Shown: positions 13,272 through 38,000 of the stretch, one piece after another
How positions within the stretch are numbered: the stretch's first letter is position 1
Layout of the letters: each line of letters begins with the position of its first letter
From: a virus
Lineage: Duplodnaviria > Heunggongvirae > Uroviricota > Caudoviricetes
Length of the DNA: 64,000 nucleotides
Strand: one strand, 5' to 3'
Virus record (IMG/VR): IMGVR_UViG_3300003310_000099
Coordinates: 42,295-106,294 of that record
Position numbers and translations under genes: made by a program
Notes under the pieces: generated by a model
The model's input: only the letters and a program-made list of their open reading frames with translations
What the model was told of the DNA's origin: nothing
The model's database searches: none

Positions 13272-13273
13272 TT

Positions 13274-13776: not shown

Positions 13777-13777
13777 T

Positions 13778-13850: not shown

Positions 13851-13851
13851 C

Positions 13852-14106: not shown

Positions 14107-14223
14107 TGAGTAGGGTCGAAATTGGCCGTCTGAGAGCGTTTGCACGACGTACTCCTCGGACCTTTCCATAACTGATCTATATGATTTATTTGGGTGCAAC
14201 TGGATAAATCTCTACTCATTTAT

Positions 14224-14295
14224 GGCCCATTCGTCTAGCGGCTAGGATAACTGGCTTTCAATCAGTTGACAGGAGTTCGATTCTCCTATGGGCTA
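14224..14295 (+). tRNA. tRNA, anticodon read as TTC (Glu), third copy
   Basis: Acceptor ggcccat/atgggct, anticodon arm actgg-ctTTCaa-tcagt, T-arm aggagTTCGATTctcct. Confidence 0.55.
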
Positions 14296-14491
14296 CATTG
14301 AAGAGTGGTTTAAATGTTGGTGTACATGTAAAGCCGTGAATTGGGTATATGCTGGCGATCCTATGGACCAGACTATACCCGATGTTCACGGCTTTATTTG
14401 TTTTAAATGTGGTGCAGAGAATGAATTTGATAATCTGGACCTATTTGAAGACGATGAAAGGTATTTTAAGGAAGGTTTAGAGCATCCATAG
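14288..14491 (+). CDS. hypothetical Cys-rich protein (67 aa; start uncertain)
   Basis: The track start overlaps the tRNA 3' end; the alternative internal Met is at 14363. CWCTCK…CFKCGAE motifs. Confidence 0.35.
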   Translation: MGYIEEWFKCWCTCKAVNWVYAGDPMDQTIPDVHGFICFKCGAENEFDNLDLFEDDERYFKEGLEHP

Positions 14492-15323: not shown

Positions 15324-15351
15324 TTTACAAAACGTAGTTTTGTGTTATACT
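15324..15351 (+). promoter_or_regulatory. sigma70-like promoter P1 (-35 TTTACA, 16-nt spacer, extended -10 TGTGTTATACT)
   Basis: Matches the TGn-TATAAT architecture. The same 14-mer TGTGKTATACTGAG recurs at 19691. The predicted start site coincides with the ATG of the ligase gene, giving a leaderless mRNA. Confidence 0.5.
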
Positions 15352-15357
15352 GAGCGT

Positions 15358-16458: not shown

Positions 16459-16810
16459 ATTATATAAGTATTTTGAAGATGTTAAGTTTTCAGCCATGCT
16501 TAATGTTTGCAGTGGTTTTAACTGTGTAAAGCATGGGTTGGATATTGATATAAATGTTAATAAACTGATTTGGGAAATGGATGAATGGGAATTTCAGTTA
16601 GAACTCTATGACAGAATCCATGAATTATTGTCTGTTAGTGGTCTTGAAGAGTTTGAACATCCATATGATATGGCAATAACCGCCTATCTTTTTGCATTAA
16701 GTAAGCGTAATATGCCATTGGCGGTACTGTGTTCCAGGTTTGTCAAGGACGTTCCAAGGCTTTTCTGGGCCTATAAAATGGCTAAGGAGTTGAGGGTTCG
16801 GGATGAATGA
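16451..16810 (+). CDS. hypothetical protein (119 aa)
   Basis: ORF overlapping the ligase stop by 8 nt. Confidence 0.45.
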   Translation: MDELYKYFEDVKFSAMLNVCSGFNCVKHGLDIDINVNKLIWEMDEWEFQLELYDRIHELLSVSGLEEFEHPYDMAITAYLFALSKRNMPLAVLCSRFVKDVPRLFWAYKMAKELRVRDE

Positions 16811-17477
16811 TTTACCCCCTTGGCGAAGATGGTTTGAAGTCTTTATTCGTTTCCTTATATTCTATAGCATTTTCAGTTTCTATGCAGAAGTAGATTTCGC
16901 CAAAGAAGATACAAGTAGTGGGTTCTGGCTCTGGAGTGAGCGAGTTGTAGCTATCATATTCACTATTGAATACATTTTAAGATGGAGTTGGTCCCCGCAC
17001 GGCTGGAAATGGCCTTTCACTTTCTATGCTGTCGTAGATTTACTCGCAATTCTACCTTTCTACATAGGATTCTTTGTCCCATCCCACCACTTGGGCGTCA
17101 TACGGTCTTTGCGTGTTCTAAGACTGTTGAAGCTAACTAGGTACAGTTTAGCTTTGGACAGGTTTTTAGACAGTTTCAGAAGAGTTAAGGATGAATTAAC
17201 GATCATCATGGTGTTTTTGATGATTGTAGTCTTTTTAGGGGCTACTCTTCTGTATGAGTTTGAGCATCCTGTTCAGCCTGAAAAAATCTCCTGTTTAGCA
17301 GACGCAACTTGGCTATGTTTCATCACCATAGCGACTATTGGTTATGGTGACATATACCCAATGACTTGGCCTGGAAGGATTATAGTGATGATTGTGTGTG
17401 TATTGGGGCTTGGTATTTTTGGTTCATTCGTCAGTCTTTTAGGCAGTTCCGTAATATGCAGGGATAAGAAACCTTAA
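16803..17477 (+). CDS. voltage-gated potassium channel (6-TM, Kv-like)
   Basis: 224 aa. S4-like VIRSLRVLRLLKLTRYS has Arg/Lys every third residue. The pore has the canonical K+ selectivity filter TIATIGYGD. There are hydrophobic segments before and after. Confidence 0.8.
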   Translation: MNDLPPWRRWFEVFIRFLIFYSIFSFYAEVDFAKEDTSSGFWLWSERVVAIIFTIEYILRWSWSPHGWKWPFTFYAVVDLLAILPFYIGFFVPSHHLGVIRSLRVLRLLKLTRYSLALDRFLDSFRRVKDELTIIMVFLMIVVFLGATLLYEFEHPVQPEKISCLADATWLCFITIATIGYGDIYPMTWPGRIIVMIVCVLGLGIFGSFVSLLGSSVICRDKKP

Positions 17478-18025: not shown

Positions 18026-18367
18026 GGAGACTCCTTCTCATCCGTATATACGCTTGACAAAGTGAGTTCCTGTGCTATATTATCAATGTGACAGCCAAAA
18101 AAGGAGGAGTTATGCTCTAGGTAGAAAATTGCGATTGTGTATTCCATTTCAACAAGGCGAGTCTTGCCGACCCAAACGTTCCAGCTTGGGTGTTAAAGGC
18201 AAAGGGTGAAACATATTATGTTACCCATGTAACATCGAATGCTCCTTGGTCTACCAAGGAAACGCCTGACAATTCGCATACGAAGGGTAGTTTGAAATTT
18301 AAGCGTGTGAATGTCATTATTCACGAAGATAATTCGGCTGAAATATTTGAAGTTTAGGAGGCATAAA

Positions 18368-19687
18368 ATGCCTAATAAAGTGAAGATTACTGGCGGTCCT
18401 AGTTTTTCTTGGTATGTCGTAACTTTCGTTTTATTCATCTGGGATTTTTACTACGGTCTAGTTTGGTTAATCACCAATCTAGTAACCGTAGTTTCCATTT
18501 ATATTTATCTTCGCTACAAGCATGTCCCAATTATTAAGAGTTTACTTGATACCGACTGGTACAAGTTTACGATGGGGCAGGTAGTTTTCCACAATTTCCC
18601 TTACACAAATGTCGAATACGCCTTTATTAACCGTGGGAAGACTCAGTTCCCAGAAGGTTTCGCTGATGCACTGCGTAAAGAACTTAAAGCTCTGAGTAAG
18701 CTTAAGTTAAGGTACAAAGAAATCCAGTGGCTTGCTGAGAACTGGTGTATGAGTGGGGATTATGTGGAATTTCTGACTGATTTTAGGTTTAATCCTGAAC
18801 AGGTTAAGATTTCGCAGAGCAGTGGCGACCTGGATATTAAGATTAGCGGACCTTGGAAGGAAACAATTCTTTGGGAAGTGCCTTTGATGGCAATTATCAG
18901 TGAATTGTATTTCAAAATGACTGAAAGAACTTGGGATGAAGATGCCTTTGTCAGGAAGACTGAAAATAAAGGTAACAAAATGCAGAATGCTGGAGTTGCT
19001 TGGAGCGATTTCGGCACCCGACGTAGGTTTTCTTTCGCTGTGCAGGATAAACTTAATTCGGTTATGCGGCACTTTCATGAAGGATTCAAAGGCACAAGCA
19101 ATCCTTACTTTGCCATGAAGTATAATTTAACCCCTATTGGCACTTATGCTCATGAAGCTGTGATGGCTATGCAGATGTTTTATGGTGCCAAGGATTCTAA
19201 CCGAAAATGGATGGAGTATTGGTGCAAGGAATACGATGGCTACATGCGAATCGCTCTTACTGATACTCTTACTACCGATGTTTTCTTGAGGGATTTTGAC
19301 TATAAAACAGCAAATGAGTTTGCTGGAGTTCGTCAGGACAGTGGTGATCCGTTTGAATTTGGTGAAAAACTGATTCAGCATTATGAGAAATTGGGCATTG
19401 ACCCAAAAACTAAGAAAATCGTGTTTAGTGATAGTTTGGATGCTGATAAGGCAGTGGCTTTGCACGAAAGATTTTCTGACCGTATTCAGTGTGTGATGGG
19501 TATTGGCACACATTTGACTAACGATTGTGGGCATAAACCACTGAATATGGTTATTAAGCTGACTGCTGTTGAAGGTATGCCAGTAGTGAAGCTGTCGGAC
19601 GACAAAGGCAAGCACACTGGTATTCCTGAAGTAATTGATAAGGTCAAGGAAGAATTGGGTATCAACAATAAGCTTGTCATTGTGTGA
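18368..19687 (+). CDS. pncB: nicotinate phosphoribosyltransferase (PncB-like)
   Basis: LLDTDWYKFTMGQVV and SDFGTRRR motifs are typical of the NAPRTase family. AGGAGG RBS upstream of ATG 18368. An N-terminal ~45-aa hydrophobic extension is present. Confidence 0.75.
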   Translation: MPNKVKITGGPSFSWYVVTFVLFIWDFYYGLVWLITNLVTVVSIYIYLRYKHVPIIKSLLDTDWYKFTMGQVVFHNFPYTNVEYAFINRGKTQFPEGFADALRKELKALSKLKLRYKEIQWLAENWCMSGDYVEFLTDFRFNPEQVKISQSSGDLDIKISGPWKETILWEVPLMAIISELYFKMTERTWDEDAFVRKTENKGNKMQNAGVAWSDFGTRRRFSFAVQDKLNSVMRHFHEGFKGTSNPYFAMKYNLTPIGTYAHEAVMAMQMFYGAKDSNRKWMEYWCKEYDGYMRIALTDTLTTDVFLRDFDYKTANEFAGVRQDSGDPFEFGEKLIQHYEKLGIDPKTKKIVFSDSLDADKAVALHERFSDRIQCVMGIGTHLTNDCGHKPLNMVIKLTAVEGMPVVKLSDDKGKHTGIPEVIDKVKEELGINNKLVIV

Positions 19688-19733: not shown

Positions 19734-20534
19734 ATGGCGAAGAAGATTCATCTGGTTATCATTGACCCACAGGTAGATTTCTGTGACCCCAAGGGCAACC
19801 TTTATGTCAAGGGTGCTGACAAGGACATGGAACGCTTGGCGGGCATGGTCAAAAAGCTGAAGCGTAAGATTGATGACATTCACATCACACTCGATAGTCA
19901 TCACTTAGTACACGTTGCTCATCCAATCTTTTGGAAGGACTCTGCGGGCAACAATCCTGGTCCATTTACCATCATCAGTGCGGAAGATGTTCGCAAGGGT
20001 AAATGGACCACCACGAAGCCAAGTCTTTACAAGCGAGCCAAGGATTATGTTGAAACCCTTGAGAAGAATGCTCGCTACCCTCTCTGTATCTGGCCACCGC
20101 ACTGTTTGATCGGGTCGGTTGGGCAGACTGTTTATCCCGCTCTTTATGAAGCGGTGATGGAATGGTGTAAGGATTTTGCTGCTGTTGATTTCGTTACTAA
20201 GGGCAGCAACATCCTCACCGAACACTATTCAGCTATTGTGGCTGACGTGCCTGATCCAAATGATCCTGGCACTCAGATTAACGTCAATTTCCTCAATACC
20301 ATCAATGAAGCTGATTTGGTACTTCTTGCTGGTGAAGCACGAAGTCACTGTCTGGCCAATACTGGCCGCGATGCTTGTAACTACTTCAGCGATGATTCGC
20401 TGGTGAAGAAGCTGGTATTGCTCACGGATGCAACGAGTGACGTGACAGGTTTTGAGAGTCTTGGCGAGCAGTTCGTGAAGGATATGGTTGCTCGCGGTAT
20501 GCAGGTGACTACCACTAAGGACTTCTTAGCATAA
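19734..20534 (+). CDS. pncA: nicotinamidase (PncA, isochorismatase family)
   Basis: IIDPQVDFC matches the VDxQNDF signature of nicotinamidases and isochorismatase hydrolases; catalytic Cys candidate in PPHCLIGS. Confidence 0.7.
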   Translation: MAKKIHLVIIDPQVDFCDPKGNLYVKGADKDMERLAGMVKKLKRKIDDIHITLDSHHLVHVAHPIFWKDSAGNNPGPFTIISAEDVRKGKWTTTKPSLYKRAKDYVETLEKNARYPLCIWPPHCLIGSVGQTVYPALYEAVMEWCKDFAAVDFVTKGSNILTEHYSAIVADVPDPNDPGTQINVNFLNTINEADLVLLAGEARSHCLANTGRDACNYFSDDSLVKKLVLLTDATSDVTGFESLGEQFVKDMVARGMQVTTTKDFLA

Positions 20535-21507: not shown

Positions 21508-22251
21508 ATGCCAAAGTTCGATGAAGTGATGGAAAGTCGTAAGGTTCCTGGTACGCATTTCGGCTATACAGGAACCCGTCTCAATGACCTCACTGGTGCA
21601 ACCGAGTATACTCTTTGCACCATCGTCCTTGACGAAAGTGGCTCCACTGACAGTTTCCGCACTGAAATGGAAAAGTGCATTCAGGAAATTGTCAAGGCTT
21701 GTCGTTATAGTCCCCGTGCCGATAATTTGATGCTGCGTTTGGTAGCATTTGGCACGAATTACCGTGAAGTTCATGGCTTTAAGTTGCTTCAGTCCTGTAA
21801 TCCACAGGATTATGACAACTGCTATAAGCCAGGTGGCTCCACAGCGTTGTTTGATGCGGCTTGTGACGCCATTGAAGCTACCAAGGACTATGCAAAGCAG
21901 TTGAGTAATAACGACTACCTTTGCAACGCTTGTGTCTTTGTTCTCACTGATGGCGATGACAATGCAAGCAAGTTCAACGCCAACAATGTCAAGGATTCAC
22001 TGAATAAGTGCGTCACAAGCGAAGCCTTGGAAAGCCTGGTGTCAGTCTTGATTGGTGTGAACGTTAATGTCCAGACCATCGCTGACTACTTGAATAACTT
22101 CCACAAGCAGGCTGGGTTCACTCAGTATGTTGAGTTGAACAACGCAAGCGAGAAGACTTTGGCCAAGCTCGCTGCGTTCGTCAGCAAGAGTATTTCGAGT
22201 CAGTCTCAGGCTTTGGGGTCAGGCTCGAAATCGCAGTCGCTTACGTTCTAG
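21508..22251 (+). CDS. von Willebrand factor type A (vWA) domain protein
   Basis: MIDAS motif IVLDESGSTD, plus GGSTAL and VLTDGDDN motifs. Confidence 0.75.
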   Translation: MPKFDEVMESRKVPGTHFGYTGTRLNDLTGATEYTLCTIVLDESGSTDSFRTEMEKCIQEIVKACRYSPRADNLMLRLVAFGTNYREVHGFKLLQSCNPQDYDNCYKPGGSTALFDAACDAIEATKDYAKQLSNNDYLCNACVFVLTDGDDNASKFNANNVKDSLNKCVTSEALESLVSVLIGVNVNVQTIADYLNNFHKQAGFTQYVELNNASEKTLAKLAAFVSKSISSQSQALGSGSKSQSLTF

Positions 22252-22321: not shown

Positions 22322-23362
22322 GTGGTTATTTGGAAGGAAATTATGAAAACTGGAGACAAAATAAGTCATTGGGAAATCCTTGAATATATTGGCAAAAATA
22401 AGCACGGATTAAATCTTTGGCGGTGTCGATGTAACTGTAGTGCTGAAAGAGTATTAACTACTTCTTATCTCAATATGCAAAAGGATAGAGGATATCGTTT
22501 TTGCAGAAAATGTCACGGAAAAGAAGAAGATAAAGAATTCATTGCTGAATACATTGGCAAGAAAATTGGCACTTGGACAGTTTTGGCATTGAAAGGCAGA
22601 AACAAATACAGAACCAGAAAGTGGTTGTGCAAATGTGATTGCGGCGTCGAGAAACTGTTTACAACCTGCTATTTGTCTGGCAGATATAAACGAAAAGCTA
22701 CTACTTGCAAATATTGTGAGTTGAAAAATCTGGAATTAGAGAACCGCACGACCGATTATCTACCGCAGCGATTTTGGCAAAAGTTTCTCAATGTCGCAAG
22801 GAAAAGGAACATCGCCGTATTAATTACGAAAGAGCAAGCATTTAATAAGTATAAAACACAAGATGGTCGGTGCAACTTATCAGGGTTGCCTTTATATTTC
22901 ACTAAATTAACAGGCAGGTATTGGAGATACACCAACGCATCTATTGACAGGATCGACTCGACAAAGCCATATACTTTGGATAACATCCAATGGCTTGAGA
23001 AGCGAATCAACATGATGAAGCAGGCGTATTCTCAACACGAATTTGTTGCCTTGTGCAAGTTGGTTGCAAAAACGGACAAAGTTCACTTTAACGAAGTTCA
23101 ATGGGATGGAGAAGACCCACAGTTACTTCGAGATATTGAGAAGCATACAACCCAGGAAAACATGATTTGTTTAAATTGCGGTCAAAACGAAGCGATTTTC
23201 CATCCAAGACTATGTAGCGACTGTTGTGATTTATTACAAGCCATGAACAGGTGTTATAATGAGCAAAAAAGAAAAGAAATTGGTAAAACTGATCCGCAAA
23301 CGGAAAGACCAGATGGAGAATCAGCAATACAAACTAAGAAAAATAAGGATCAAAAAGCATGA
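22322..23362 (+). CDS. HNH_3-like homing-endonuclease-like protein with repeated Zn-finger modules
   Basis: 346 aa. Two CRCNC…CRKCH / CKCDC…CKYC modules. C-terminal NASIDRIDSTKPYTLDNIQWL resembles the HNH_3 (DHID…N) motif, but His is replaced by Arg. Confidence 0.45.
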   Translation: MVIWKEIMKTGDKISHWEILEYIGKNKHGLNLWRCRCNCSAERVLTTSYLNMQKDRGYRFCRKCHGKEEDKEFIAEYIGKKIGTWTVLALKGRNKYRTRKWLCKCDCGVEKLFTTCYLSGRYKRKATTCKYCELKNLELENRTTDYLPQRFWQKFLNVARKRNIAVLITKEQAFNKYKTQDGRCNLSGLPLYFTKLTGRYWRYTNASIDRIDSTKPYTLDNIQWLEKRINMMKQAYSQHEFVALCKLVAKTDKVHFNEVQWDGEDPQLLRDIEKHTTQENMICLNCGQNEAIFHPRLCSDCCDLLQAMNRCYNEQKRKEIGKTDPQTERPDGESAIQTKKNKDQKA

Positions 23363-23601: not shown

Positions 23602-23869
23602 ACAATTTGAAAAAGGCAAGCGATACCGTTTTGGGGTAAAAGGCAGCTTGGTATATGAAGCTACTTTTGATGGAAGTGAATTTGAGCCAGAAATGTATCG
23701 TTGGAAGGATGTGGTAATGTATTCTTATCCTTCCACAACACCACCATCAATGGCCACGGAAATTATCCAACAACCATATGTGAGTTGTCGAAAGTCAATG
23801 TGTCCAAGACCACCAGTTACAGATGGATATTGTCAATTACATGAAAGGGAGCTAAAAAATGAATCGTAG
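23594..23869 (+). CDS. hypothetical protein (91 aa)
   Basis: Internal ATG overlapping the upstream stop (ATGCCTAA). Confidence 0.4.
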   Translation: MPKQFEKGKRYRFGVKGSLVYEATFDGSEFEPEMYRWKDVVMYSYPSTTPPSMATEIIQQPYVSCRKSMCPRPPVTDGYCQLHERELKNES

Positions 23870-24287
23870 ATCATGGTTTGTAGCAGCATTAGCATCGGTG
23901 GCTAGTCTATTTGGGTCCAAGGCTCAAGCTGTGCCTATTACCAGTCATGGTAATGAGGAAATTGGTTATTGGTTGGAGAAATGGCACGAAGATGTTTGTG
24001 ACGGTGAACGTGTTATTAGGGGACTAGCATATATTTACCTAGAGCATTATGTTCCATATTGCAAAAGGGTAGATGGAGTTCATAACGAATTTGTTTCTTG
24101 CCCTAGTCATATTGAATACGGAAAGGTGTATGGTAAAATGGTTTTTACTATAAAGTATAAATCAGACGGTTCAATTAGTTCGACAGAATTTAATAAAACC
24201 AGTGAAAGTCTGATTGTTCCAACCAATGTACACGTTTTCCGTGACAGCTTGATTGCCAATCTACATCAGAGAAAGGTCTTCAAATGA
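23859..24287 (+). CDS. secreted protein with twin-arginine (Tat-like) signal peptide
   Basis: MNRRSWFVAALASVASLFGSKAQA. Paralog of the next gene. Confidence 0.5.
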   Translation: MNRRSWFVAALASVASLFGSKAQAVPITSHGNEEIGYWLEKWHEDVCDGERVIRGLAYIYLEHYVPYCKRVDGVHNEFVSCPSHIEYGKVYGKMVFTIKYKSDGSISSTEFNKTSESLIVPTNVHVFRDSLIANLHQRKVFK

Positions 24288-24706
24288 ATCGTAGATCATG
24301 GTTTAGCGCGGCACTAGCATCGGTGATGGGGTTGTTTGGTTTAAAGCCACTTTTTTGTGCTGAGATAGATGAAAAGTCTCAGCGTATTCTTCAGGTGCAT
24401 GGCCCATTGATACAAACGCCAACTATAAAGCAAATTGTTGAGTCCATTGATTACACTCCACTATGCGATTATATTGCATGGGATATATGCAAGGGTATAA
24501 AGAGCGATAGTATCCCAAATATATCAAGCTATCTTCAAACGTTGGTATCTGAGTTTAGGAAAAATCACACACAAGAAGAGTGTAATCAATACTTGTGGGA
24601 ATATCATCATTTCCTAAGAGGTGATTGGCCGACGCCAATACCACCTGAATTGGCCCCGCACGCTGTTTTGAAGAAATTCCAGAGTGGTATAACTAATGAA
24701 ATTTGA
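24284..24706 (+). CDS. secreted protein with twin-arginine (Tat-like) signal peptide, paralog
   Basis: MNRRSWFSAALASVMGLFGLKP. Confidence 0.5.
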   Translation: MNRRSWFSAALASVMGLFGLKPLFCAEIDEKSQRILQVHGPLIQTPTIKQIVESIDYTPLCDYIAWDICKGIKSDSIPNISSYLQTLVSEFRKNHTQEECNQYLWEYHHFLRGDWPTPIPPELAPHAVLKKFQSGITNEI

Positions 24707-24732: not shown

Positions 24733-25176
24733 GTGTGTCGTATATACATTATGATATTCTCCCAATGGTTAGAAGCTAGCAAGAACATTAATGGCTTTGT
24801 GACAAACATTGAAGAAGATACAGTTAATAACCAGAACTTCCGAAAGGTTTTGTATACTTCCAAATACAGTCAATTAGTGCTTATGTCACTAAAGCCGAAA
24901 GAAGAAATTGGTATGGAAACTCATGGAGTTGACCAATTTTTTCGCATAGAAGAAGGTAATGGGGAAGTAATCCTGAATGGGGAGAAGCACCCAATCAAAA
25001 GTGGCAGTGCGATGGTTATTCCTGCTGGCACCAAACATAATGTAATCAATACGTCAAAAACCGAAGCTTTGAAGATTTATACAATTTATTCGCCACCGCA
25101 CCATAAAGATGGCGTCTTGGTCAAAACTAAATCTGCACAGAGGCCAGAAGAATATGACGGAAAAACAAGTTTCTAA
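24733..25176 (+). CDS. cupin-domain protein
   Basis: HGVDQFFRIEEGNGEVILNGEKHPIKSGSAMVIPAGTKHNVIN matches the cupin_2 two-His motif pattern. The start may be 24751. Confidence 0.55.
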   Translation: MCRIYIMIFSQWLEASKNINGFVTNIEEDTVNNQNFRKVLYTSKYSQLVLMSLKPKEEIGMETHGVDQFFRIEEGNGEVILNGEKHPIKSGSAMVIPAGTKHNVINTSKTEALKIYTIYSPPHHKDGVLVKTKSAQRPEEYDGKTSF

Positions 25177-25941: not shown

Positions 25942-26772
25942 ATGTGTGCAGATATTTTCTATACAATTGGGGCAACTCATCAAGTCTGCCAGGATTTTGC
26001 CCTGACTGATGGCAAATCCTATGTGATCGTTTCTGATGGTTGTTCATCTGCAAAAGACTCTGATTGGGGTTCAAGACTCCTTGCTAAAGCGTTAGAAGAG
26101 TCTTTCAGGGAGAAATCCAGACTGAAATTGGATGAGATTCCTGTGTCGTTAATTAACAATGCTGTTAAACTTGCAGAGTGCTATACTGCTTTGTTAAAGA
26201 TCGACAAGGACTGTCTGGCAGCTACTTTAATGGCAGCTTACAAGACAGATAAAGGCATTCATGCTTTCATTAGTGGGGATGGCAGTATTGTAGCTAAATT
26301 TGGCGATAGCCTGCAAATTATTGACCATAGCTATGATAGTGGCGCACCATACTATCTTTATTACACCCTGGATGACGGCTTAAAGTATGGCTATAGCCAA
26401 GCTTTTGGCAATGGTGAACTTCACATTGAAAAGAGCATTGTTGAAGTGAATCGTGGTCGTAGAACTATAAGGGAAACACTTTCTGGTCCTAGTATGGTTA
26501 GAACGACTTCTCATTATTTCTTTCCCAAAGAAGAATTTACTTGTGTTGGTATAATCACTGATGGCTTGAAGTCATTCGTCAAACAGGTGAAAAAACACAC
26601 TAGTATTACAAACGAATCAGTGCCTTTTGAGAGTTTTGTTGGCGATTTGTTCAGTTTTAAGACGCATGAAGGTCAGTACGTTCATCGTCGTTGTCAGCGT
26701 GCTTTCAGGGAATTTCACAATCAAGGCATCAAGCATAATGACGATTTTGCTATGGGAGTGATAGGACATTGA
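25942..26772 (+). CDS. PP2C-like (PPM family) protein phosphatase candidate
   Basis: 276 aa. VSDGCSSAKDSDWGS, ISGDGSIVA and C-terminal NDDFAMGVIG resemble the PPM motifs DGxGG, GDSR and DN-t-vvv. Assigned by motif only. Confidence 0.45.
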   Translation: MCADIFYTIGATHQVCQDFALTDGKSYVIVSDGCSSAKDSDWGSRLLAKALEESFREKSRLKLDEIPVSLINNAVKLAECYTALLKIDKDCLAATLMAAYKTDKGIHAFISGDGSIVAKFGDSLQIIDHSYDSGAPYYLYYTLDDGLKYGYSQAFGNGELHIEKSIVEVNRGRRTIRETLSGPSMVRTTSHYFFPKEEFTCVGIITDGLKSFVKQVKKHTSITNESVPFESFVGDLFSFKTHEGQYVHRRCQRAFREFHNQGIKHNDDFAMGVIGH

Positions 26773-26951
26773 AAGAAATAAATGAATTAAAAAACCGCCC
26801 TATGGATATTGTCGCCCTCGAACAACTAAGGGCGATGCATGATTATTATCTTAGCAAGATGGTTGATTATGCCACAATTGACTATATTGGAGAAAAGGAT
26901 ATCCGTCAACTTAGAGAAATCTATGCCAAGAAGGAAGCAGCAAAGCCATGA
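26769..26951 (+). CDS. hypothetical protein (60 aa)
   Basis: Sits between the phosphatase-like and kinase-like genes, overlapping both by 4 nt. Confidence 0.4.
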   Translation: MKEINELKNRPMDIVALEQLRAMHDYYLSKMVDYATIDYIGEKDIRQLREIYAKKEAAKP

Positions 26952-28624
26952 AAGTCTTTATCAAGGGTAAAAACAAGCCGATTGAATTAAATAATGCAGA
27001 CTTTCTTGCTGCTGGTGGTGAAGGCAAGATTTATGTTAAAGGCGACACCGTATATAAAATATGCGAATCTGGCAAAATGATTCCTGAAGGGAAATTTGCT
27101 GAACTTTCCGTCTTGTCTGACCCTCATATCATCAAACCCGAACAAATCCTCGTAGATGCCAAGAACCAAAATGTTGGCTATACGATGAAATTCATTCAGG
27201 ACAGTTACACGCTTTGCCAAATCTTCACCAAAGCATTTCGTCTAAGAAACAATATTAAGCACGATACCGTGATTGATCTTGTTCGACAAATGCAGAGAAC
27301 AATTCAGCATATCCATAATCACAATATTCTCCTTGTGGATGGCAACGAGTTTAACTTCCTTTTGGATAACAAGTTCAAGGAAGTGTATTTCATTGACGTG
27401 AACAGCTATCAGACTCCACACTATCCTGCTATGGCTATTATGGATAGCATCAGGGATAGACACGCTCACAATAAATTCAGTAAACTTACAGACTGGTTCT
27501 CGTTCGCTATTGTTTCATTTCAGATGTTTATCGGCATTCACCCTTATAAGGGCAAGCATCCGAAACATACTGATATCGACAGCAGAATGCTCCATAATGT
27601 CTCGGTATTTGACAAGGATGTAGGTTTCCCTGTGGCGGCTTGTCAGCCTTTCACAGTGATACCAGACGCTTATTTGCAGTGGTATAAAGCGGTTTTGGAC
27701 AGAGGTGAGCGTATTCCGCCACCTAATGATTTGATTGCTACGGTCCATGTTATTGTGCCAGTGGTCAAGCTTGTTGGGGGTAAAAGCTTGTCTATCGACA
27801 AATTACGCGAGTTTACTTCCAACATTATGGGATATTATCACTCGTCTGGCACGGAAGTTTTTGTGACCGACAAGAAAATCTATGTCAATAAGGACGAATT
27901 TGACAACAACGGCAACAAGACCGTGATTGGTTTCACCAGAACCAATATGCCTATTGCTGCTTGGCTTGATGGCGGTTATGTCAAATTGCATGATATTACC
28001 AAGAACAAGTTGATTAATTTCTCTTGCTCTGGTAGTAAGATCATGGACATTGAAGGTCGTATTTATGTCCAAAACGGCATGAACATTATTGAAATTGTGT
28101 TCACCGAAATTAAGGACAAGATTATTGCCTCACCACATATTGTGGCTAATGTCCTTGAGCAAGCGACACGGTTCTATGATGGTGTAGTGATTCAGAACCT
28201 GTTTGATGCTTATTATGCATCTATTTTCCCAATGACCAAGAATTGTCAGCAGATTGCTTTAAGGGAACTGGATGGTCTGCGGGTTATTGATGCGAAGTAT
28301 GAAGGTAAGATTTTGATGGTAGTGGCTGTTGATAAGAAGGGCCACTATAACCGCTTTACCTTTGCTTTCAAAGATGACTGGAAGTATGATATTGCTAAAA
28401 AGGAAAATATCACTTATACTGGTTTGAACTTCACCGTATTGGATAATGGCGTTTGTATCCATATTGATGAAGATGAGAATATTGAAATTTTCAACAAACT
28501 GAGCAATGCCAAGGTTGTTACGGATGATGCGATCAATAATGATATGTTGCTATATCATAAAGGTGCAGCGGTTCTGTTTACCAAGGACAACGCCATTTAC
28601 TCTGTTGCAATGAGAAAACCATGA
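26948..28624 (+). CDS. protein-kinase-like protein with large C-terminal domain
   Basis: 558 aa. Gly-rich loop AAGGEGKIYV, Lys in VYKI, catalytic-loop-like HNHNILLVDGNEFNFLLD, DFG-like FIDVNSY. Confidence 0.5.
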   Translation: MKVFIKGKNKPIELNNADFLAAGGEGKIYVKGDTVYKICESGKMIPEGKFAELSVLSDPHIIKPEQILVDAKNQNVGYTMKFIQDSYTLCQIFTKAFRLRNNIKHDTVIDLVRQMQRTIQHIHNHNILLVDGNEFNFLLDNKFKEVYFIDVNSYQTPHYPAMAIMDSIRDRHAHNKFSKLTDWFSFAIVSFQMFIGIHPYKGKHPKHTDIDSRMLHNVSVFDKDVGFPVAACQPFTVIPDAYLQWYKAVLDRGERIPPPNDLIATVHVIVPVVKLVGGKSLSIDKLREFTSNIMGYYHSSGTEVFVTDKKIYVNKDEFDNNGNKTVIGFTRTNMPIAAWLDGGYVKLHDITKNKLINFSCSGSKIMDIEGRIYVQNGMNIIEIVFTEIKDKIIASPHIVANVLEQATRFYDGVVIQNLFDAYYASIFPMTKNCQQIALRELDGLRVIDAKYEGKILMVVAVDKKGHYNRFTFAFKDDWKYDIAKKENITYTGLNFTVLDNGVCIHIDEDENIEIFNKLSNAKVVTDDAINNDMLLYHKGAAVLFTKDNAIYSVAMRKP

Positions 28625-29067
28625 GAATTTTATTAGTTATATTAGCATTAGCTTGTATTAGTGCTGACAAGAAGAAAGAACCGCGTGTTATCGACATTTA
28701 CATATATGAAACACGTCAATTAAACAATACAACCACCTTTTACTCATGGATAAGTGATACAGATGGCGGTGATTGTGAAGTAGAAGGCACTTGCCCAGAG
28801 ATTGAGATTGGCTGGCTCCAATGTGGAGCGATGTATATTGAAAATAAGGGTGGTGCCAAGGGGAAGGGTATTTCTGGGCAATCAATGGTTTTGGTTACTA
28901 TTGCAGAACCTGATGACAATTGGGTTGATGGTGGCAGTGGTAAGTCAGTCAAAATATGGTTTGGCAAGCTTGACAATGGGAATTGGGATGGTAAGATTTA
29001 TATAGAGGTTCCTCACAAGTCAACATATAAAGTTCGCAGAACTGTGAATATTAGGAGAGAGCCATGA
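28621..29067 (+). CDS. lipoprotein (signal peptide plus lipobox LALAC)
   Basis: MRILLVILALACISADKK. Confidence 0.55.
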   Translation: MRILLVILALACISADKKKEPRVIDIYIYETRQLNNTTTFYSWISDTDGGDCEVEGTCPEIEIGWLQCGAMYIENKGGAKGKGISGQSMVLVTIAEPDDNWVDGGSGKSVKIWFGKLDNGNWDGKIYIEVPHKSTYKVRRTVNIRREP

Positions 29068-29735
29068 GTGATGAAACTGAAGAGTTGAAGGCACAAGAAG
29101 AGGCTAAGTGGGATTTAATCCAAGCCTTGGAATTAGAGTCTGTAAAAGACCGTATTCTCAAGAAGAAAGGTTTTTGGTGGAAATTAACCAAGAACAATCT
29201 GGATAGTGTTGAGTTGGAATATAGACAATTCCTGTATTTAGCTGCGGTCAATCCTACCGAAATAGTTGTGCCTTGGTCAGAAGCATTGGATGAATTCTGG
29301 CATAATCATATCTTGGATACAGCCAAGTATGAAAAGGACTGTATGGCCATCTTTGGTAAGATGTTCCACCATAATCCTCACTTGCCAGTTGGAAGCAAAG
29401 AACAGGTTGAGGGTTATAACAATACTAAGAAGATGTATAAGGAATCTTTTGGGGGCCGTTCTTCCTCATCTGAGGTTCCTGGTTGTAGCTCTATGTTTAT
29501 TGCTGTGTTCTGTGGAAGCGATCCAGTAGTTCATGAGTCTAATAATCATGAATCTAATGGCCACGAATCTAGTCATAGTCACTCATCTGATTGTAGCCAT
29601 TCAAGTCACTCTGATAGCGGCGGTCACTCATCTTCTGACAGTGGTGGGCATTCAGACGGTGGTAGCAGTAGTGCAGCAAGTTGCGGGGGTGGGTCTTGCG
29701 GGGGTGGAGGAGGTTGCGGTGGGGGTGGCGATTAA
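29064..29735 (+). CDS. protein with WHNHILDT-containing domain and His/Ser/Gly/Cys-rich low-complexity C-terminal tail
   Basis: 223 aa. The C-terminal 70 aa is HESNNHESNGHESSHSHSSDCSHSSHSDSGGHSSSDSGGHSDGGSSSAASCGGGSCGGGGGCGGGGD. Confidence 0.5.
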   Translation: MSDETEELKAQEEAKWDLIQALELESVKDRILKKKGFWWKLTKNNLDSVELEYRQFLYLAAVNPTEIVVPWSEALDEFWHNHILDTAKYEKDCMAIFGKMFHHNPHLPVGSKEQVEGYNNTKKMYKESFGGRSSSSEVPGCSSMFIAVFCGSDPVVHESNNHESNGHESSHSHSSDCSHSSHSDSGGHSSSDSGGHSDGGSSSAASCGGGSCGGGGGCGGGGD

Positions 29736-31324: not shown

Positions 31325-31576
31325 ATGAGTTGGAATTATAGAGTGATGAAGCATGTTGACAAAAACCCGCTTCATCATAAAAATACAGAAATACCAGAAA
31401 CAGAAACTTGGTATGCAATTCATGAAGTCTATTACCATGAAAACAAGGTTGGTTATACAACTAACCCCATTCCTTTAAGTGCCGATACTATCGAAGACCT
31501 GGAATCTGTTTACAGGATGATTGGCGAAGCTTTCAAAAAACCAATTTTAGATTACAAGGAGAACGACAATGGGTGA
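31325..31576 (+). CDS. hypothetical protein (83 aa)
   Basis: ORF. Confidence 0.4.
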   Translation: MSWNYRVMKHVDKNPLHHKNTEIPETETWYAIHEVYYHENKVGYTTNPIPLSADTIEDLESVYRMIGEAFKKPILDYKENDNG

Positions 31577-32453
31577 GAACACTTTGAAGGCGGGCTGTTT
31601 TACAATAGTTGGGGCAGGTATTCTTTCTGTGTTGGCGTTCGGTTTTTGGTTTTTGAACAGTAGTAATCCAGACACACCAGCAGGTTATGTTGGGTATCAG
31701 ACCCAAGGCGCGATGTTTGGGCAAGGTTCTTTCTATGGAACTCAGAAAGGTCCAGCATCCCCAGGCCGTACCTGGATGCTTAAGAGTTTCCCTGTAAGTA
31801 TTACCCCTTATACTTATGGTGAAGATTTTTCTGGTGAAAGTGAAGTCCTTTCTAAGGACAATTTGAAAATCAATTACAGAGTCCATTTAGTCTGGCGTAT
31901 CAAGGAAGATGCTGTAAAGGATGCAGTTGAAAAGTATTCCACCATTGACACAACTGGCAAGGCACAAGACCCAGAAAAAGTTGTCAAGGATATTTACAAC
32001 AACTATCTCAAAGAGCCATTCAGGACTTTTAGCCGTGACGAAGTGCAGAAGTTAGAATGGCAGAGGATCAAAGAACAGCAGGTTGTTATTGGCAACAACA
32101 TTAAGAACAATATGCTTGCTCTGACAAAGGACGCACCTTTTGAAATTATTAGCGTGAATGTAGGCAATATTCAATATCCCAAGGTTGTATCCGATGCAGT
32201 TGCTGATAATCTCGCCACTACTCAGCATTTGGAGAAGGAGAGAAAGGATGCGGAGCGTCGTATTGTGCAGGCTGAGGCTATCGCAAAAGCTATGGATATC
32301 ATCAATCAGAAGTTAACTCCTAATTACCTACAGCATGAGGCTATTGAGGCACAGAAGGCTATGGTTAATAGTCAAAATCACACTGTAATCTACATTCCTG
32401 TGGGCAATATGGGTGTCCCACTTGTTGGAACCTTGGATATGAGTAAAAAATGA
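31569..32453 (+). CDS. SPFH/band-7 (prohibitin/HflK-like) membrane protein
   Basis: 294 aa. N-terminal TM helix, then an SPFH-like region and an Ala/Glu/Lys-rich coiled coil (RIVQAEAIAKAMDIINQKL…AIEAQKAMV). Confidence 0.6.
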   Translation: MGENTLKAGCFTIVGAGILSVLAFGFWFLNSSNPDTPAGYVGYQTQGAMFGQGSFYGTQKGPASPGRTWMLKSFPVSITPYTYGEDFSGESEVLSKDNLKINYRVHLVWRIKEDAVKDAVEKYSTIDTTGKAQDPEKVVKDIYNNYLKEPFRTFSRDEVQKLEWQRIKEQQVVIGNNIKNNMLALTKDAPFEIISVNVGNIQYPKVVSDAVADNLATTQHLEKERKDAERRIVQAEAIAKAMDIINQKLTPNYLQHEAIEAQKAMVNSQNHTVIYIPVGNMGVPLVGTLDMSKK

Positions 32454-32910: not shown

Positions 32911-33453
32911 ATGGCAGAAACTAGAAAAGCTCATGACCGTAGGGTAAGAGAAAATTGGTTTGAGAAGTATGCCCCTCCTTATAAATCAGGGATTGATTTA
33001 GGATGTGGGCATGACCCATTAAATCAAACATTCCGAAGATTTGACTGTGCTTTTGGTGATGGTGATGCTCAATTAATGCATGGAACGATGGATAATCAGT
33101 TCCATACGGTGTACGCCAGTCACCTTTTGGAGCATGTGGTAAATCCTATTGAAGCAGTTTTTAACTGGTTCAGGATTTGCAGGAGTCCAGGGCATGTAAT
33201 CATTTGTGTGCCTCATAGAGATTTATATGAGAAGAAGAAAACCCTTCCAAGCAGGTGGAATGGCGACCACAAAACATTCTGGTTGCCAGAGAATGGGGAA
33301 GGGCCAGTAACGATGGGCTTGAGGAATGTGATCTTGCAAGCAGTGCCCAATGCTGATATAGTTTCTTTGAGAGTGTTAGATGAAGGTTGGGTCCAAAATG
33401 GGGATGGTCATTCTGGTGGAGAATATAGCATAGAAGCTATTATTAGAAAATGA
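32911..33453 (+). CDS. class I SAM-dependent methyltransferase
   Basis: Motif I GIDLGCGHD. Size typical of the Methyltransf_11/23 family. Confidence 0.65.
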   Translation: MAETRKAHDRRVRENWFEKYAPPYKSGIDLGCGHDPLNQTFRRFDCAFGDGDAQLMHGTMDNQFHTVYASHLLEHVVNPIEAVFNWFRICRSPGHVIICVPHRDLYEKKKTLPSRWNGDHKTFWLPENGEGPVTMGLRNVILQAVPNADIVSLRVLDEGWVQNGDGHSGGEYSIEAIIRK

Positions 33454-37031: not shown

Positions 37032-38000
37032 ATGTTTTTCAATCCACTGCTACCAATTGAAGAAGCTTGTACCCTTCCATCTATTTATTACACCAAGCCT
37101 CTTGATGAGTCCAAGATTTTTAACAGGTCTTGGCAATTTGTTGGACACACCTATGCTTTACAGAATATAGGTGATAGCTTCACTTCACAGATAGCCAATG
37201 AACCACTCTTAATTGTCAAGAACGAGAATGGCATTGAAGCCTTGTCAAATGTGTGCAGACACCGTGGCACCATACTATCCGATGGTGGTAGTTGTAAAAA
37301 ATTAGTATGTCCTTACCACGGCTGGACCTACTCACTGACAGGTGAATTGTTGGGCTGCACTGAATTTGAAGGCGTCAATATCAATAAACACAATAATGGC
37401 TTGCCTAAGTTTGAAGTTCTAGTGCGGGAGCCGTTTATATTCGTCAATATAAATAACAGATATGGAACGTCATTCGATTTGCCAGAGTTGGATTATTGGT
37501 TCCATAGTACCAAGACCTACGACATAAAATGCAACTGGAAGGTATATGTTGATAACTATTTAGATGGTGGTTATCATATAAAGTACGCTCATAAGTCTCT
37601 TGCCAAGGCTGTTAATGATGCTGAGTACAAGACTTCCATTAATGATATGATTGTCACTCAAACCGCACCGTTAGATGGTAGTGATTTAAGAAAAGGCACT
37701 GCTCAATATATTTGGGTGTTTCCTAACTTCATGGTCAATATCTCCGATGAAGCAATGGACACCAATTTGGTCATACCTGTCGATAAGGATAATTGCAAAG
37801 TCGTATTTGATTTCTACTTTAAATGTGCAGGGAACATAGCTCAAAGCTTAGAGCTTTCAGAGAAGATTCAGCAGGAAGATATTGAAATATGTGAGAGGGC
37901 ACAACAGGGAATGAAGAGTAATTTTTATGAATCTGGGAGATTCGCAAAAAGAGAAATTGGTGTTTATCACTTCCACAAACTTATAAACTTATATTTATAA
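37032..38000 (+). CDS. Rieske [2Fe-2S] non-heme iron oxygenase, alpha-subunit-like
   Basis: Rieske motif CRHRG…(17 aa)…CPYHGW, followed by a catalytic-domain-sized C-terminus (322 aa). Confidence 0.7.
   Translation: MFFNPLLPIEEACTLPSIYYTKPLDESKIFNRSWQFVGHTYALQNIGDSFTSQIANEPLLIVKNENGIEALSNVCRHRGTILSDGGSCKKLVCPYHGWTYSLTGELLGCTEFEGVNINKHNNGLPKFEVLVREPFIFVNINNRYGTSFDLPELDYWFHSTKTYDIKCNWKVYVDNYLDGGYHIKYAHKSLAKAVNDAEYKTSINDMIVTQTAPLDGSDLRKGTAQYIWVFPNFMVNISDEAMDTNLVIPVDKDNCKVVFDFYFKCAGNIAQSLELSEKIQQEDIEICERAQQGMKSNFYESGRFAKREIGVYHFHKLINLYL

What the first reader, a model, noticed from the sequence alone, without database searches (positions are those of the whole stretch)
25942..28624. Three-gene module: PP2C-like phosphatase, small protein, kinase-like protein with ~300-aa C-terminal domain
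25942..26772 carries PPM-like motifs (VSDGCSS…DWGS, ISGDGSI, terminal NDDFAMGVIG). 26948..28624 has a glycine-rich loop (AAGGEGKIYV), a VYKI lysine, a catalytic-loop-like HNHNILLVDGNEFNFLLD, and an FIDVNSY segment. This is consistent with a divergent protein-kinase-like fold fused to an uncharacterised C-terminal domain. All three genes overlap by 4 nt, indicating translational coupling. A phage kinase/phosphatase pair could reprogram host proteins or interfere with phosphorylation-dependent defence signalling.
Basis: inference. Interest (0 to 1): 0.6.

Follow-up and report, generated by a model that had tools for sequence, protein, structure and literature searches.

The report
Phage kinase–phosphatase switch beside NAD salvage
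The phosphatase and kinase are real, but they belong to a larger gene set (nicotinamidase, vWA protein, PP2C phosphatase, kinase with a beta-propeller) that is conserved across huge phages and some bacteria, resembles the bacterial TerY-P/YegL-PphC-YegI signalling triad, and sits among NAD-recycling genes.

Summary
25942-26772 is a PP2C_2 phosphatase with its metal-binding Asp residues intact. 26948-28624 is a Hanks-type protein kinase with its catalytic residues intact, fused to a cytoplasmic seven-bladed beta-propeller. The 60-aa middle ORF is not a conserved component: it has a TTG start, no homologues, and unrelated ORFs fill the same slot in close relatives.

The real unit is larger. A nicotinamidase (PncA-like, 19734-20534) and a MIDAS-vWA protein (21508-22251) precede the phosphatase and kinase, in the same order and on the same strand. 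Of 80 viral contigs that carry the kinase, 79 have the PP2C, 74 the vWA and 74 the PncA-like gene. Closed Armatimonadota chromosomes carry the same block. NAPRTase, NadE or NMNAT genes often lie beside or inside it.

The kinase family is homologous to E. coli YegI (hhalign 97%). The gene order vWA-PP2C-kinase matches yegL-pphC-yegI, that is, the TerY-P triad. The beta-propeller replaces the known C-terminal modules, and the PncA link is not in the literature I could search.

Most likely function, by inference: a self-contained phospho-switch coupled to nicotinamide-to-NAD+ salvage during infection.

Verdict: a new variant of a known kind, of moderately high interest.

The parts
18311..19687 (+). 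Nicotinate phosphoribosyltransferase (PncB-like NAPRTase). It is an associated NAD-salvage neighbour, not an invariant part of the cassette.
   Evidence: Pfam NAPRTase E=2.8e-60 and NAPRTase_N E=1.6e-34. A NAPRTase lies within 10 kb of the kinase in 31/80 viral loci. It lies directly after the kinase in several Armatimonadota chromosomes.
19734..20534 (+). Nicotinamidase-like (PncA-type) cysteine hydrolase, 266 aa. It is the first conserved gene of the cassette.
   Evidence: A profile of 6 members hits almost only nicotinamidase structures: yeast Pnc1 2h0r at 1.4e-6 and M. tuberculosis PncA 3pl1 at 7e-6. The WPPHC motif is present. D11, K156 and C206 are invariant, as are D54, H56 and H123. 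The gene is found upstream of the vWA gene in 74/80 viral loci and 51/80 genome loci, with a median gap of 50 nt. The Pfam Isochorismatase match is only weak (E=0.0024, below cut-off).
21508..22251 (+). vWA-domain protein with a complete MIDAS motif and an invariant Ser-rich C-terminal tail (TerY/YegL-like), 247 aa.
   Evidence: The window protein itself gives only VWA_2 E=0.036 and phrog_7371 E=2.7e-14. Of 30 relatives, 14 hit Pfam VWA (best 6.7e-10) and 10 hit VWA_2. Many relatives are named 'YegL' by JGI. D42, S46, T112 and D148 are invariant and S44 nearly so. The tail F224-V-S226-x-S228-I-S230-x-Q232-S233 is invariant. The gene is upstream of the PP2C in 74/80 viral loci.
25942..26772 (+). 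PP2C_2 (PPM) Ser/Thr phosphatase, 276 aa.
   Evidence: Pfam PF13672 E=4.2e-14, above the cut-off. This is the same Pfam family as E. coli PphC/YegK. The metal-binding Asp residues are conserved. The gene is present upstream of the kinase in 79/80 viral loci.
26769..26951 (+). 60-aa ORF that fills the PP2C-kinase gap. It is not conserved and its coding status is uncertain.
   Evidence: TTG start. No family hit in Pfam, PHROGs or PADLOC, and only an insignificant NCBIfam match (E=0.052). No homologue in any of 169 related loci. In relatives whose kinase is 87%, 79% and 71% identical, unrelated ORFs occupy the slot. In other loci the slot holds a 123-aa ORF, an NMNAT gene or nothing.
26948..27760 (+). 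YegI-like Hanks-type protein kinase domain (residues 1 to about 271).
27761..28624 (+). Seven-bladed beta-propeller domain (residues about 272-558) fused to the kinase.

Best explanation
The two enzymes belong to a conserved cassette, in this order on one strand:
- a nicotinamidase (PncA-like);
- a MIDAS-vWA protein (TerY/YegL-like);
- a PP2C_2 phosphatase (PphC-like);
- a YegI-like Hanks Ser/Thr kinase fused to a cytoplasmic seven-bladed beta-propeller.

This is a huge-phage version of the bacterial TerY-P / YegL-PphC-YegI phospho-signalling triad. It is physically embedded in Preiss-Handler NAD-salvage genes (PncA, NAPRTase; elsewhere also NadE and NMNAT).

Shown here:
- the domain identities, with intact catalytic and metal-binding residues in all four proteins;
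- homology of the kinase to YegI;
- the conserved gene order and co-occurrence in viral contigs and in bacterial chromosomes;
- the non-conservation of the 60-aa ORF.

Inferred mechanism:
- the propeller acts as the input domain and binds a ligand or protein;
- the activated kinase phosphorylates a cassette-internal target, most plausibly the invariant Ser-rich C-terminal tail of the vWA protein, or else PncA;
- the PP2C resets the switch;
- the phosphorylation state of the vWA protein controls, through its MIDAS site, an interaction that tunes conversion of nicotinamide to NAD+ during infection, for example when host defences or phage metabolism drain NAD+.
For: Domain identities:
- PP2C_2 above the Pfam cut-off, with conserved Asp residues.
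- Beta-propeller.
- vWA with a complete MIDAS motif.
- Nicotinamidase catalytic triad and metal site.

Relation to the triad:
- hhalign of the kinase family against YegI gives 97.4%. Both share the unusual D-x-N-x-x-[NS]-F catalytic loop and I-D-x-[ND]-S-[YF]-Q in place of DFG.
- E. coli has the order yegL-pphC-(yegJ)-yegI.
- PphC belongs to the same Pfam family as the phage phosphatase.
- In most E. coli strains pphC and yegI overlap by ATGA, and YegI is an active autophosphorylating Ser/Thr kinase (bioRxiv 10.1101/819920).
- TerY-P is defined as a TerY-like vWA, a PP2C and an STK (PMC11090510).

Co-occurrence census:
- Of 80 IMG/VR loci with the kinase, 79 have the PP2C, 74 the vWA, 74 the PncA-like gene and 31 a NAPRTase.
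- 40/80 have at least one more NAD gene within 10 kb. In some loci NMNAT or NadE sits inside the cassette.
- The median PncA-to-vWA gap is 50 nt.

Bacterial copies:
- A closed Capsulimonadaceae chromosome has a contiguous block (270-aa protein matching the PncA-like profile, vWA, PP2C, kinase, NAPRTase) flanked by cellular genes. Other large Armatimonadota contigs show the same order.

Candidate target:
- The vWA tail has four invariant serines. YegL has a similar Ser-rich tail.
Against: - No experiment and no complex prediction links the kinase to the vWA tail or to PncA. The target and the output are inference from gene neighbourhood alone.
- Phage gene order is conserved for reasons other than function, and the cassette is often interrupted. 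In this window a homing HNH endonuclease and several small ORFs separate the vWA and PP2C genes by 3.7 kb.
- Similarity of the vWA and PP2C to YegL and PphC is weak at profile level (hhalign E=0.0005-0.003, probability 10-33%).
- The kinase lacks the C-terminal zinc ribbon, OB fold or transmembrane segments of described triad kinases.
- Some bacterial copies lack the PP2C.
- Only half of the viral loci have a second NAD gene nearby.
Confidence: 0.55

Rival explanations
1. Host-takeover pair. The phage kinase phosphorylates host proteins such as RNA polymerase, RNases or defence signalling proteins, as T7 gp0.7 does. The PP2C erases host phospho-signals.
For: Both enzymes look catalytically competent. 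The beta-propeller could recruit a host protein. The proteins are cytoplasmic, with no transmembrane segment or signal peptide. Phage kinases that target host proteins are established knowledge (T7 gp0.7; my own knowledge, not tested here).
Against: The same cassette sits in bacterial chromosomes among cellular genes, where 'host takeover' has no meaning. The enzymes come with a dedicated vWA partner and are homologous to a cellular triad. Pairing a kinase with its own phosphatase is typical of a reversible switch on a defined substrate. There is no similarity to known takeover kinases (PHROGs gave no hit).
Confidence: 0.15
2. A defence or competition module carried by the phage. It would be a TerY-P-type anti-phage system used for superinfection exclusion against rival phages.
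For: TerY-P-like modules act as stand-alone anti-phage systems and accompany CoCoNuT restriction systems (Gao et al. 2020 and Anantharaman et al. 2012, as cited in PMC11090510). Huge phages carry many conflict systems.
Against: No nuclease or other effector is linked. The constant neighbour is a nicotinamidase. The kinase has a propeller rather than the OB fold or zinc ribbon. PADLOC gives no TerY-P hit. That test is uninformative, because E. coli YegL, PphC and YegI also give none. The cassette is near-universal and deeply diverged across the sampled huge-phage contigs (kinase identity down to 31%). That is more like a core function than a shuffled defence island.
Confidence: 0.15
3. No functional unit. 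Independent genes (NAD salvage on one side, a signalling pair on the other) stay near each other only because synteny is conserved in this phage lineage.
For: Gaps over 1 kb between vWA and PP2C, or between PP2C and kinase, occur in 19/73 loci each. Inserted genes vary. In 4 viral loci the vWA gene lies downstream of the kinase.
Against: The block is retained as a compact operon-like unit in bacterial chromosomes of at least two phyla, with unrelated flanks. Order and strand are kept down to 31% kinase identity. The vWA-PP2C-kinase order recurs independently in E. coli.
Confidence: 0.1

Closest known systems
E. coli YegL - PphC (YegK) - YegI
   Same: - Same three protein types in the same order on one strand.
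- The phage kinase family aligns with YegI over the whole kinase domain (hhalign 97.4%). Both share the atypical catalytic-loop and DFG-replacement motifs.
- PphC and the phage phosphatase are both PF13672.
- YegL and the phage vWA both have a MIDAS motif and a Ser-rich C-terminal tail.
- pphC/yegI overlap by ATGA in most strains, and YegI is an active Ser/Thr kinase (10.1101/819920).
   Different: [quoted passage not shown] The phage kinase is soluble and ends in a beta-propeller.
- No pncA or NAPRTase gene lies next to the E. coli genes.
- vWA and PP2C similarity is weak.
TerY-P triad (TerY-like vWA + PP2C + Ser/Thr kinase; Anantharaman et al. 2012, Gao et al. 2020, CoCoNuT-associated triads)
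   Same: Same three-component composition, and a conserved neighbourhood. JGI labels many of the vWA relatives as YegL. As I recall, that is the TerY-type vWA COG.
   Different: - Described triad kinases carry a C-terminal zinc ribbon or OB fold and associate with tellurite-resistance, restriction or defence genes. Here the kinase carries a seven-bladed propeller and the constant neighbour is a nicotinamidase.
- The carriers are mainly huge phages.
- No PADLOC match, which is uninformative.
Bacterial Hanks kinases with beta-propeller sensor domains (e.g. M. tuberculosis PknD NHL propeller, WD40 kinase PkwA; own knowledge)
   Same: A kinase domain followed by a beta-propeller that is presumed to be the input or partner-binding domain.
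   Different: Those propellers are recognisable NHL, WD40 or PQQ repeats, and they are often extracytoplasmic behind a transmembrane helix. This propeller has no detectable sequence relatives outside this kinase family and no transmembrane segment precedes it.
Phage NAD+ supply systems (NARP1, NARP2, NARP3; NAD gene clusters of jumbo phages)
   Same: Phage-encoded NAD+ synthesis genes are clustered together. pncB-nadD-nadE clusters are reported in jumbo phages (PMC11662467; PMC7824862). NARP pathways counter NAD+-depleting defence (PMC13464706).
   Different: None of these reports mentions a vWA, PP2C or kinase component. The entry enzyme here is a nicotinamidase (Preiss-Handler route), which none of NARP1-3 uses as described.

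Membership tests
PPM / PP2C phosphatases (Pfam PP2C_2, PF13672) | Profile match above the curated threshold | tested here: met
   E=4.2e-14, 53 bits against a cut-off of 24. 43 of the 48 relatives found carry PF13672.
PPM / PP2C phosphatases (Pfam PP2C_2, PF13672) | Conserved metal-coordinating aspartates in the PPM motifs | tested here: met
   D18, D32, D113 and D268 are invariant. D207 and D267 are at least 90% conserved in 25 sequences.
PPM / PP2C phosphatases (Pfam PP2C_2, PF13672) | Mn2+/Mg2+-dependent phospho-Ser/Thr phosphatase activity | not testable with these tools
   This needs an enzyme assay.
Hanks-type (eukaryotic-like) protein kinases | Bilobal protein-kinase fold | tested here: met
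Hanks-type (eukaryotic-like) protein kinases | Catalytic signature: Gly-rich loop, VAIK Lys, alphaC Glu, catalytic Asp and Asn, DFG Asp | tested here: met
   G23, G24, G26, K37, D131, N136 and D150 are invariant, and E52 is at least 90% conserved. Variations: HRD is [LV]VD, the catalytic-loop Lys is Asn133, and DFG is ID[VN].
Hanks-type (eukaryotic-like) protein kinases | Pfam Pkinase match above the curated threshold | tested here: not met
   The window protein scores 25.2 bits against a cut-off of 31.7. Most relatives have a precomputed PF00069 hit. E. coli YegI, a proven kinase, also has no Pfam Pkinase match at E<=0.01.
YegI-like kinases | Profile-level homology over the kinase domain, with shared atypical motifs | tested here: met
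   hhalign 97.4%, E=9.6e-12, residues 18-315 against 19-355. D-x-N-x-x-[NS]-F and I-D-x-[ND]-S-[YF]-Q are aligned.
YegI-like kinases | Two transmembrane segments and the YegI C-terminal region | tested here: not met
   The highest 19-residue hydropathy is 1.51 in the phage kinase and 2.27 in YegI. The C-terminal region is a propeller that does not align with YegI.
TerY-P triad | Conserved neighbourhood of a TerY-like vWA, a PP2C and a Ser/Thr kinase | tested here: met
   All three are present in 74/80 viral loci and 43/80 genome loci (many of those contigs are truncated). In most loci they are on one strand in the order vWA, PP2C, kinase.
TerY-P triad | Kinase fused at its C-terminus to a zinc ribbon or an OB fold | tested here: not met
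   The C-terminal domain is a seven-bladed beta-propeller. The definition is taken from PMC11090510.
TerY-P triad | vWA of the TerY/YegL type | tested here: inconclusive
   JGI names many relatives 'YegL'. A MIDAS motif and a Ser-rich tail are shared with YegL. hhalign against YegL gives only 10-33% probability.
TerY-P triad | Anti-phage or tellurite-resistance phenotype; match to defence-system models | tested here: inconclusive
   PADLOC gives no TerY-P hit for the phage proteins. It also gives none for E. coli YegL, PphC and YegI. The phenotype cannot be tested here.
vWA domain (MIDAS-containing) | Profile match and the DxSxS...T...D MIDAS motif | tested here: met
   14/30 relatives hit Pfam VWA (best 6.7e-10). 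The window protein itself is below threshold (VWA_2 E=0.036). D42, S46, T112 and D148 are invariant and S44 is at least 90% conserved.
Nicotinamidase (PncA) | Asp-Lys-Cys catalytic triad, a metal site, and similarity to solved nicotinamidases | tested here: met
   Eight of the nine profile hits at E<=0.1 are nicotinamidases (1.4e-6 to 0.03). D11, K156 and C206 are invariant, as are D54, H56 and H123. The WPPHC motif aligns with M. tuberculosis PncA. Pfam Isochorismatase is below its cut-off. Enzyme activity was not tested.

The most novel reading that the evidence does not exclude
The cassette is a phosphorylation-gated NAD+ salvage switch.
- The propeller-kinase senses a consequence of NAD+ breakdown or of infection.
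- The kinase acts through the vWA protein to turn on the nicotinamidase-NAPRTase route.
- Huge phages would thereby have a regulated, fourth kind of NAD+-reconstitution counter-defence.
- The long-uncharacterised TerY-P / YegL-PphC-YegI triads would, for the first time, have a concrete physiological output.
Probability: 0.2. Interest if true: 0.8.

Novelty: new variant of a known kind. Interest (0 to 1): 0.6.

Why it matters
- TerY-P / YegL-PphC-YegI triads are widespread, and some defend against phages. Their signal, substrate and output are unknown.
- Here a divergent but clearly related triad is fixed next to a nicotinamidase. It is interleaved with NAD-synthesis genes in hundreds of huge-phage contigs and in some bacterial chromosomes. 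That gives a specific, testable hypothesis for what such a switch controls.
- It would add a regulatory layer to phage NAD+ supply, which is currently described only as sets of enzymes and transporters.
- It marks a conserved, apparently core, signalling module of the largest known phages.
- The chromosomal copies in Armatimonadota may offer a route to experiments if a cultivable carrier can be found. As I recall, Capsulimonas has a cultured species. No cultured phage carrying the cassette was found.

Tried and rejected
- PADLOC gave no TerY-P hit for the phage proteins, only weak generic kinase matches. The control with E. coli YegL, PphC and YegI also gave none, so the test is uninformative.
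- PHROGs had nothing for the phosphatase, the kinase or the small ORF. NCBIfam gave only sub-threshold matches.
- The AlphaFold-database fold search (afdb50) was not available. I could not ask whether cellular proteins share the full kinase-propeller architecture by structure. I used a sequence search of 1.84 billion representatives instead.
- PDB sequence searches with the vWA profiles found nothing significant.
- The small ORF as a conserved adaptor is rejected: TTG start, no homologue, and a variable slot.
- A membrane-sensor kinase is rejected, because there is no transmembrane segment.
- Promoter and terminator scans were within about 1.2 sd of the shuffled expectation.
- A MoxR-vWA assembly chaperone is not supported. 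No AAA+ gene was seen in the cassette or among the neighbours I scanned.
- The 2012 paper that defined TerY-P is not held in the library. Its definition is taken second-hand from PMC11090510.
Full report
**1. Source and observation**

The window comes from a huge phage. The kinase protein is identical to one found on a 596,617-bp JGI contig. The nearest GenBank relatives are uncultured huge phages of 595, 485 and 462 kb. The window carries 49 tRNA genes.

The small-ORF/kinase and kinase/next-ORF junctions are ATGA overlaps. The PP2C/small-ORF junction is a 4-nt overlap only if the small ORF starts at a TTG.

**2. The phosphatase**

The 25942-26772 product matches Pfam PP2C_2 (PF13672) above the curated threshold (E=4.2e-14). 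In an alignment of 25 relatives reaching down to 26% identity, the aspartates and glycines of the PPM metal-binding motifs are invariant or nearly so: D18, D32-G33, G112-D113-G114, D207-G208 and D267/D268. It is most likely an active PPM phosphatase. It is the fastest-evolving member of the set (28% mean column identity).

**3. The kinase**

- The 26948-28624 product gives a sub-threshold Pfam Pkinase match (E=1.3e-5).
- It has about 1,650 relatives, nearly all about 560 aa long. Most carry a precomputed PF00069 hit.
- An AlphaFold model built on 58 relatives is confident (pLDDT 89, pTM 0.83).
- The Gly-rich loop (G23, G24, G26), K37, D131, N136 and D150 are invariant, and E52 nearly so.
- Motifs typical of protein kinases rather than small-molecule kinases are readable in the sequence: TDWFSF for subdomain IX, and a TP-x-Y-x-A segment in place of the APE region. 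This last point is my reading of the sequence, not a tool result.
- The departures from consensus are [LV]VD for HRD, Asn133 for the catalytic-loop Lys, and ID[VN] for DFG.

**4. The C-terminal domain**

A search of 1.84 billion representative proteins with this domain alone found 968 relatives. In the 150 listed, it always lies at the C-terminus of a protein of about 560 aa or of an N-terminally truncated fragment. The propeller therefore appears to be private to this kinase family.

There is no transmembrane segment. The highest 19-residue hydropathy is 1.51, against 2.27 in E. coli YegI. The whole protein is therefore cytoplasmic.

**5. The small ORF is not a component**

- It needs a TTG start.
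- It has no significant family match.
- It has no homologue in any of the related loci.
- In relatives whose kinase is 87%, 79% and 71% identical, the slot holds unrelated ORFs.
- In more distant loci the slot holds a 123-aa ORF, an NMNAT gene or nothing.

**6. The real unit is larger**

The 485-kb phage LR745208 has a homologue of window ORF 21508-22251 upstream of its PP2C and kinase genes. The same is true on two other huge contigs. A homologue of window ORF 19734-20534 lies just before it.

I built profile HMMs of the four proteins and scanned the loci recovered with the kinase. The counts below are loci that contain each gene.

| Gene | 80 IMG/VR viral contigs | 80 GTDB genome contigs, many short |
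|---|---|---|
| PP2C | 79 | 55 |
| vWA | 74 | 54 |
| PncA-like | 74 | 51 |
| NAPRTase in the stretch fetched (up to 10 kb each side for viral loci, 8 kb for genome loci) | 31 | 16 |

- In the viral set the genes are almost always in the order PncA-like, vWA, PP2C, kinase on one strand.
- Median gaps in the viral set are 50 nt (PncA to vWA), 298 nt (vWA to PP2C) and 383 nt (PP2C to kinase).
- In this window the vWA-PP2C gap is 3.7 kb. It holds an HNH homing endonuclease and several small ORFs. An 87%-identical relative has only about 1 kb there.

**7. Identity of the two upstream genes**

*ORF 21508-22251 is a vWA protein.*
- 14 of 30 relatives hit Pfam VWA, and JGI names many of them 'YegL'.
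- The MIDAS residues D42, S46, T112 and D148 are invariant, and S44 nearly so.
- It is the best-conserved protein of the set. It ends in an invariant Ser-rich tail, F-V-S-x-S-I-S-x-Q-S.

*ORF 19734-20534 is a nicotinamidase-type hydrolase.*
- A profile of six members hits almost only solved nicotinamidases (Pnc1 at 1.4e-6, M. tuberculosis PncA at 7e-6).
- The WPPHC motif, the Asp-Lys-Cys triad and the metal ligands are invariant.

*Other NAD genes nearby.*
- ORF 18311-19687, just upstream, is a NAPRTase.
- Half of the viral loci have at least one further NAD-synthesis gene (NAPRTase, NadE, NMNAT) within 10 kb.
- In several loci NMNAT sits between the PP2C and the kinase, or NAPRTase and NadE sit between the vWA and the PP2C.

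**8. Bacterial copies**

The GTDB hits include closed or multi-megabase Armatimonadota assemblies (Capsulimonadaceae, Chthonomonadaceae), as well as Acidobacteriota and Myxococcota contigs.

In one closed 4.4-Mb chromosome the order is a 270-aa protein that matches the PncA-like profile, then vWA, PP2C, kinase and NAPRTase. The block is contiguous and has the local GC content. It is flanked by LeuA-like, serpin, PAS-histidine-kinase, MFS and GTPase genes. Some bacterial copies lack the PP2C.

In a neighbour-joining tree of the kinases, the Armatimonadota and Acidobacteriota copies form one clade. Its sub-clades follow bacterial families, and it is nested inside a much deeper viral radiation. 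This suggests that the family is mainly a huge-phage family with transfer to or from bacteria.

Three caveats apply. The tree is only a distance tree. It is midpoint-rooted. Many short 'MAG' contigs may be mis-binned phage DNA.

**9. Comparison with known systems**

*E. coli yegL-pphC-yegI.*
- E. coli K-12 has yegL (vWA), pphC (PP2C) and yegI (kinase) in the same order. yegJ is inserted between pphC and yegI.
- The phage kinase profile aligns with YegI over the whole kinase domain (97.4%, E=1e-11). Both share D-x-N-x-x-[NS]-F and I-D-x-[ND]-S-[YF]-Q.
- PphC is PF13672, like the phage enzyme.
- YegL has a MIDAS motif and a comparable Ser-rich C-terminal tail. The vWA and PP2C profile comparisons are weak, however.
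- YegI is a proven autophosphorylating Ser/Thr kinase. In most strains pphC and yegI overlap by ATGA (10.1101/819920).

*TerY-P.*
- The three-gene composition is what the literature calls the TerY-P triad. It is proposed to be a metal-sensing, phosphorylation-dependent switch.
- It is found with restriction and defence systems. In an OB-fold variant it is a stand-alone anti-phage system (PMC11090510).
- The present cassette differs in the kinase's C-terminal module (a propeller, not a zinc ribbon, OB fold or membrane anchor), in its constant nicotinamidase partner, and in its main carriers.

*Phage NAD literature.*
- Jumbo-phage NAD gene clusters and the NARP1-3 pathways are described without any vWA, PP2C or kinase component.
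- The founding huge-phage paper does not mention these genes.
- Searches for the combination found nothing. The library is limited to open-access papers, and the 2012 TerY-P paper is not held.

**10. Most likely mechanism**

*Shown:* four proteins that look catalytically or ligand-binding competent, conserved order and co-occurrence, and homology of the kinase to YegI.

*Inferred:*
- The propeller is the input domain.
- The kinase phosphorylates a cassette-internal target. The invariant Ser-rich tail of the vWA protein is the best candidate and PncA is the alternative.
- The PP2C resets the switch.
- The state of the vWA protein then governs a MIDAS-mediated interaction that tunes the nicotinamide-to-nicotinate-to-NaMN entry into NAD+ synthesis.
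- In a phage this would matter when NAD+ is consumed by replication, or cleaved to nicotinamide by host defence NADases.

I put 0.55 on this overall picture. I put much less, about 0.2, on the specific chain from target to output.

*Rivals:*
- a host-takeover kinase/phosphatase pair (0.15);
- a TerY-P-type defence or competition module (0.15);
- mere conserved synteny without functional coupling (0.1).

**11. Verdict**

The finding is best described as a new variant of the TerY-P / YegL-PphC-YegI triad: a propeller-kinase form linked to a nicotinamidase, widely conserved in huge phages, and not described in the literature I could search. Interest 0.6.

Noticed in passing
window 330-14296 (dense array), with further copies out to 61819: There are 49 tRNA genes in 64 kb. 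38 of them are packed into the first 14 kb, with many isoacceptor duplicates.
   Followed up: no
window 22322-23362: An HNH / endonuclease VII-type homing endonuclease lies between the vWA and PP2C genes (phrog_1035 E=3e-20). LR745208 has a longer HNH gene at the same position. An 87%-identical relative has none there. This looks like a mobile insertion hotspot inside the cassette.
   Followed up: partly
window 23859-24287 and 24284-24706: Two tandem small ORFs (142 and 140 aa) share near-identical N-termini (MNRRSWF.AALASV...) that resemble twin-arginine signal peptides. Neither has a Pfam match.
   Followed up: partly
window 28621-29067 and 29064-29735: Two ORFs follow the kinase, each with a 4-nt overlap. 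The first is a 148-aa protein with a lipoprotein-like N-terminus (LALAC). The second is a 223-aa protein with a weak GRDP-like match. Its C-terminal tail is rich in His, Ser, Gly and Cys (HESNGHESSHSHSS...GGGSCGGGGGCGGGGD). Neither gene follows the kinase in LR756511.
   Followed up: partly
window 16803-17477: A phage-encoded voltage-gated-type ion channel (Pfam Ion_trans E=6e-26, Ion_trans_2 E=6e-14).
   Followed up: no
window 15340-16458; L005 4135-6285: The window has an ATP-dependent DNA ligase. A related 461-kb phage has an NAD-dependent LigA a few genes upstream of its cassette. LigA homologues lie within 10 kb of the kinase in 11/80 viral loci. This is another NAD+ consumer near the salvage genes.
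   Followed up: partly
window 24733-25176, 31569-32453, 32911-33453, 37032-38000: Other neighbours are a Cupin_2 protein, an SPFH/Band 7 protein, a methyltransferase and a Rieske ring-hydroxylating oxygenase alpha subunit.
   Followed up: no
window 18311-19687: The NAPRTase ORF as listed has about 78 residues before the NAPRTase_N domain begins. These include a strongly hydrophobic stretch (residues 36-54, hydropathy 1.93). Either the true start is further downstream, or the enzyme has an unusual N-terminal extension.
   Followed up: no
L102, L109, L111, L117, L152, L155, L157, L166 (GTDB loci): In Acidobacteriota and Myxococcota contigs a variant of the cassette lacks the PP2C. PncA-like, vWA and kinase are directly adjacent.
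   Followed up: partly
window about 54000-64000: GC skew changes sign and the ORFs switch to the minus strand. This suggests a boundary between transcription or replication modules.
   Followed up: no
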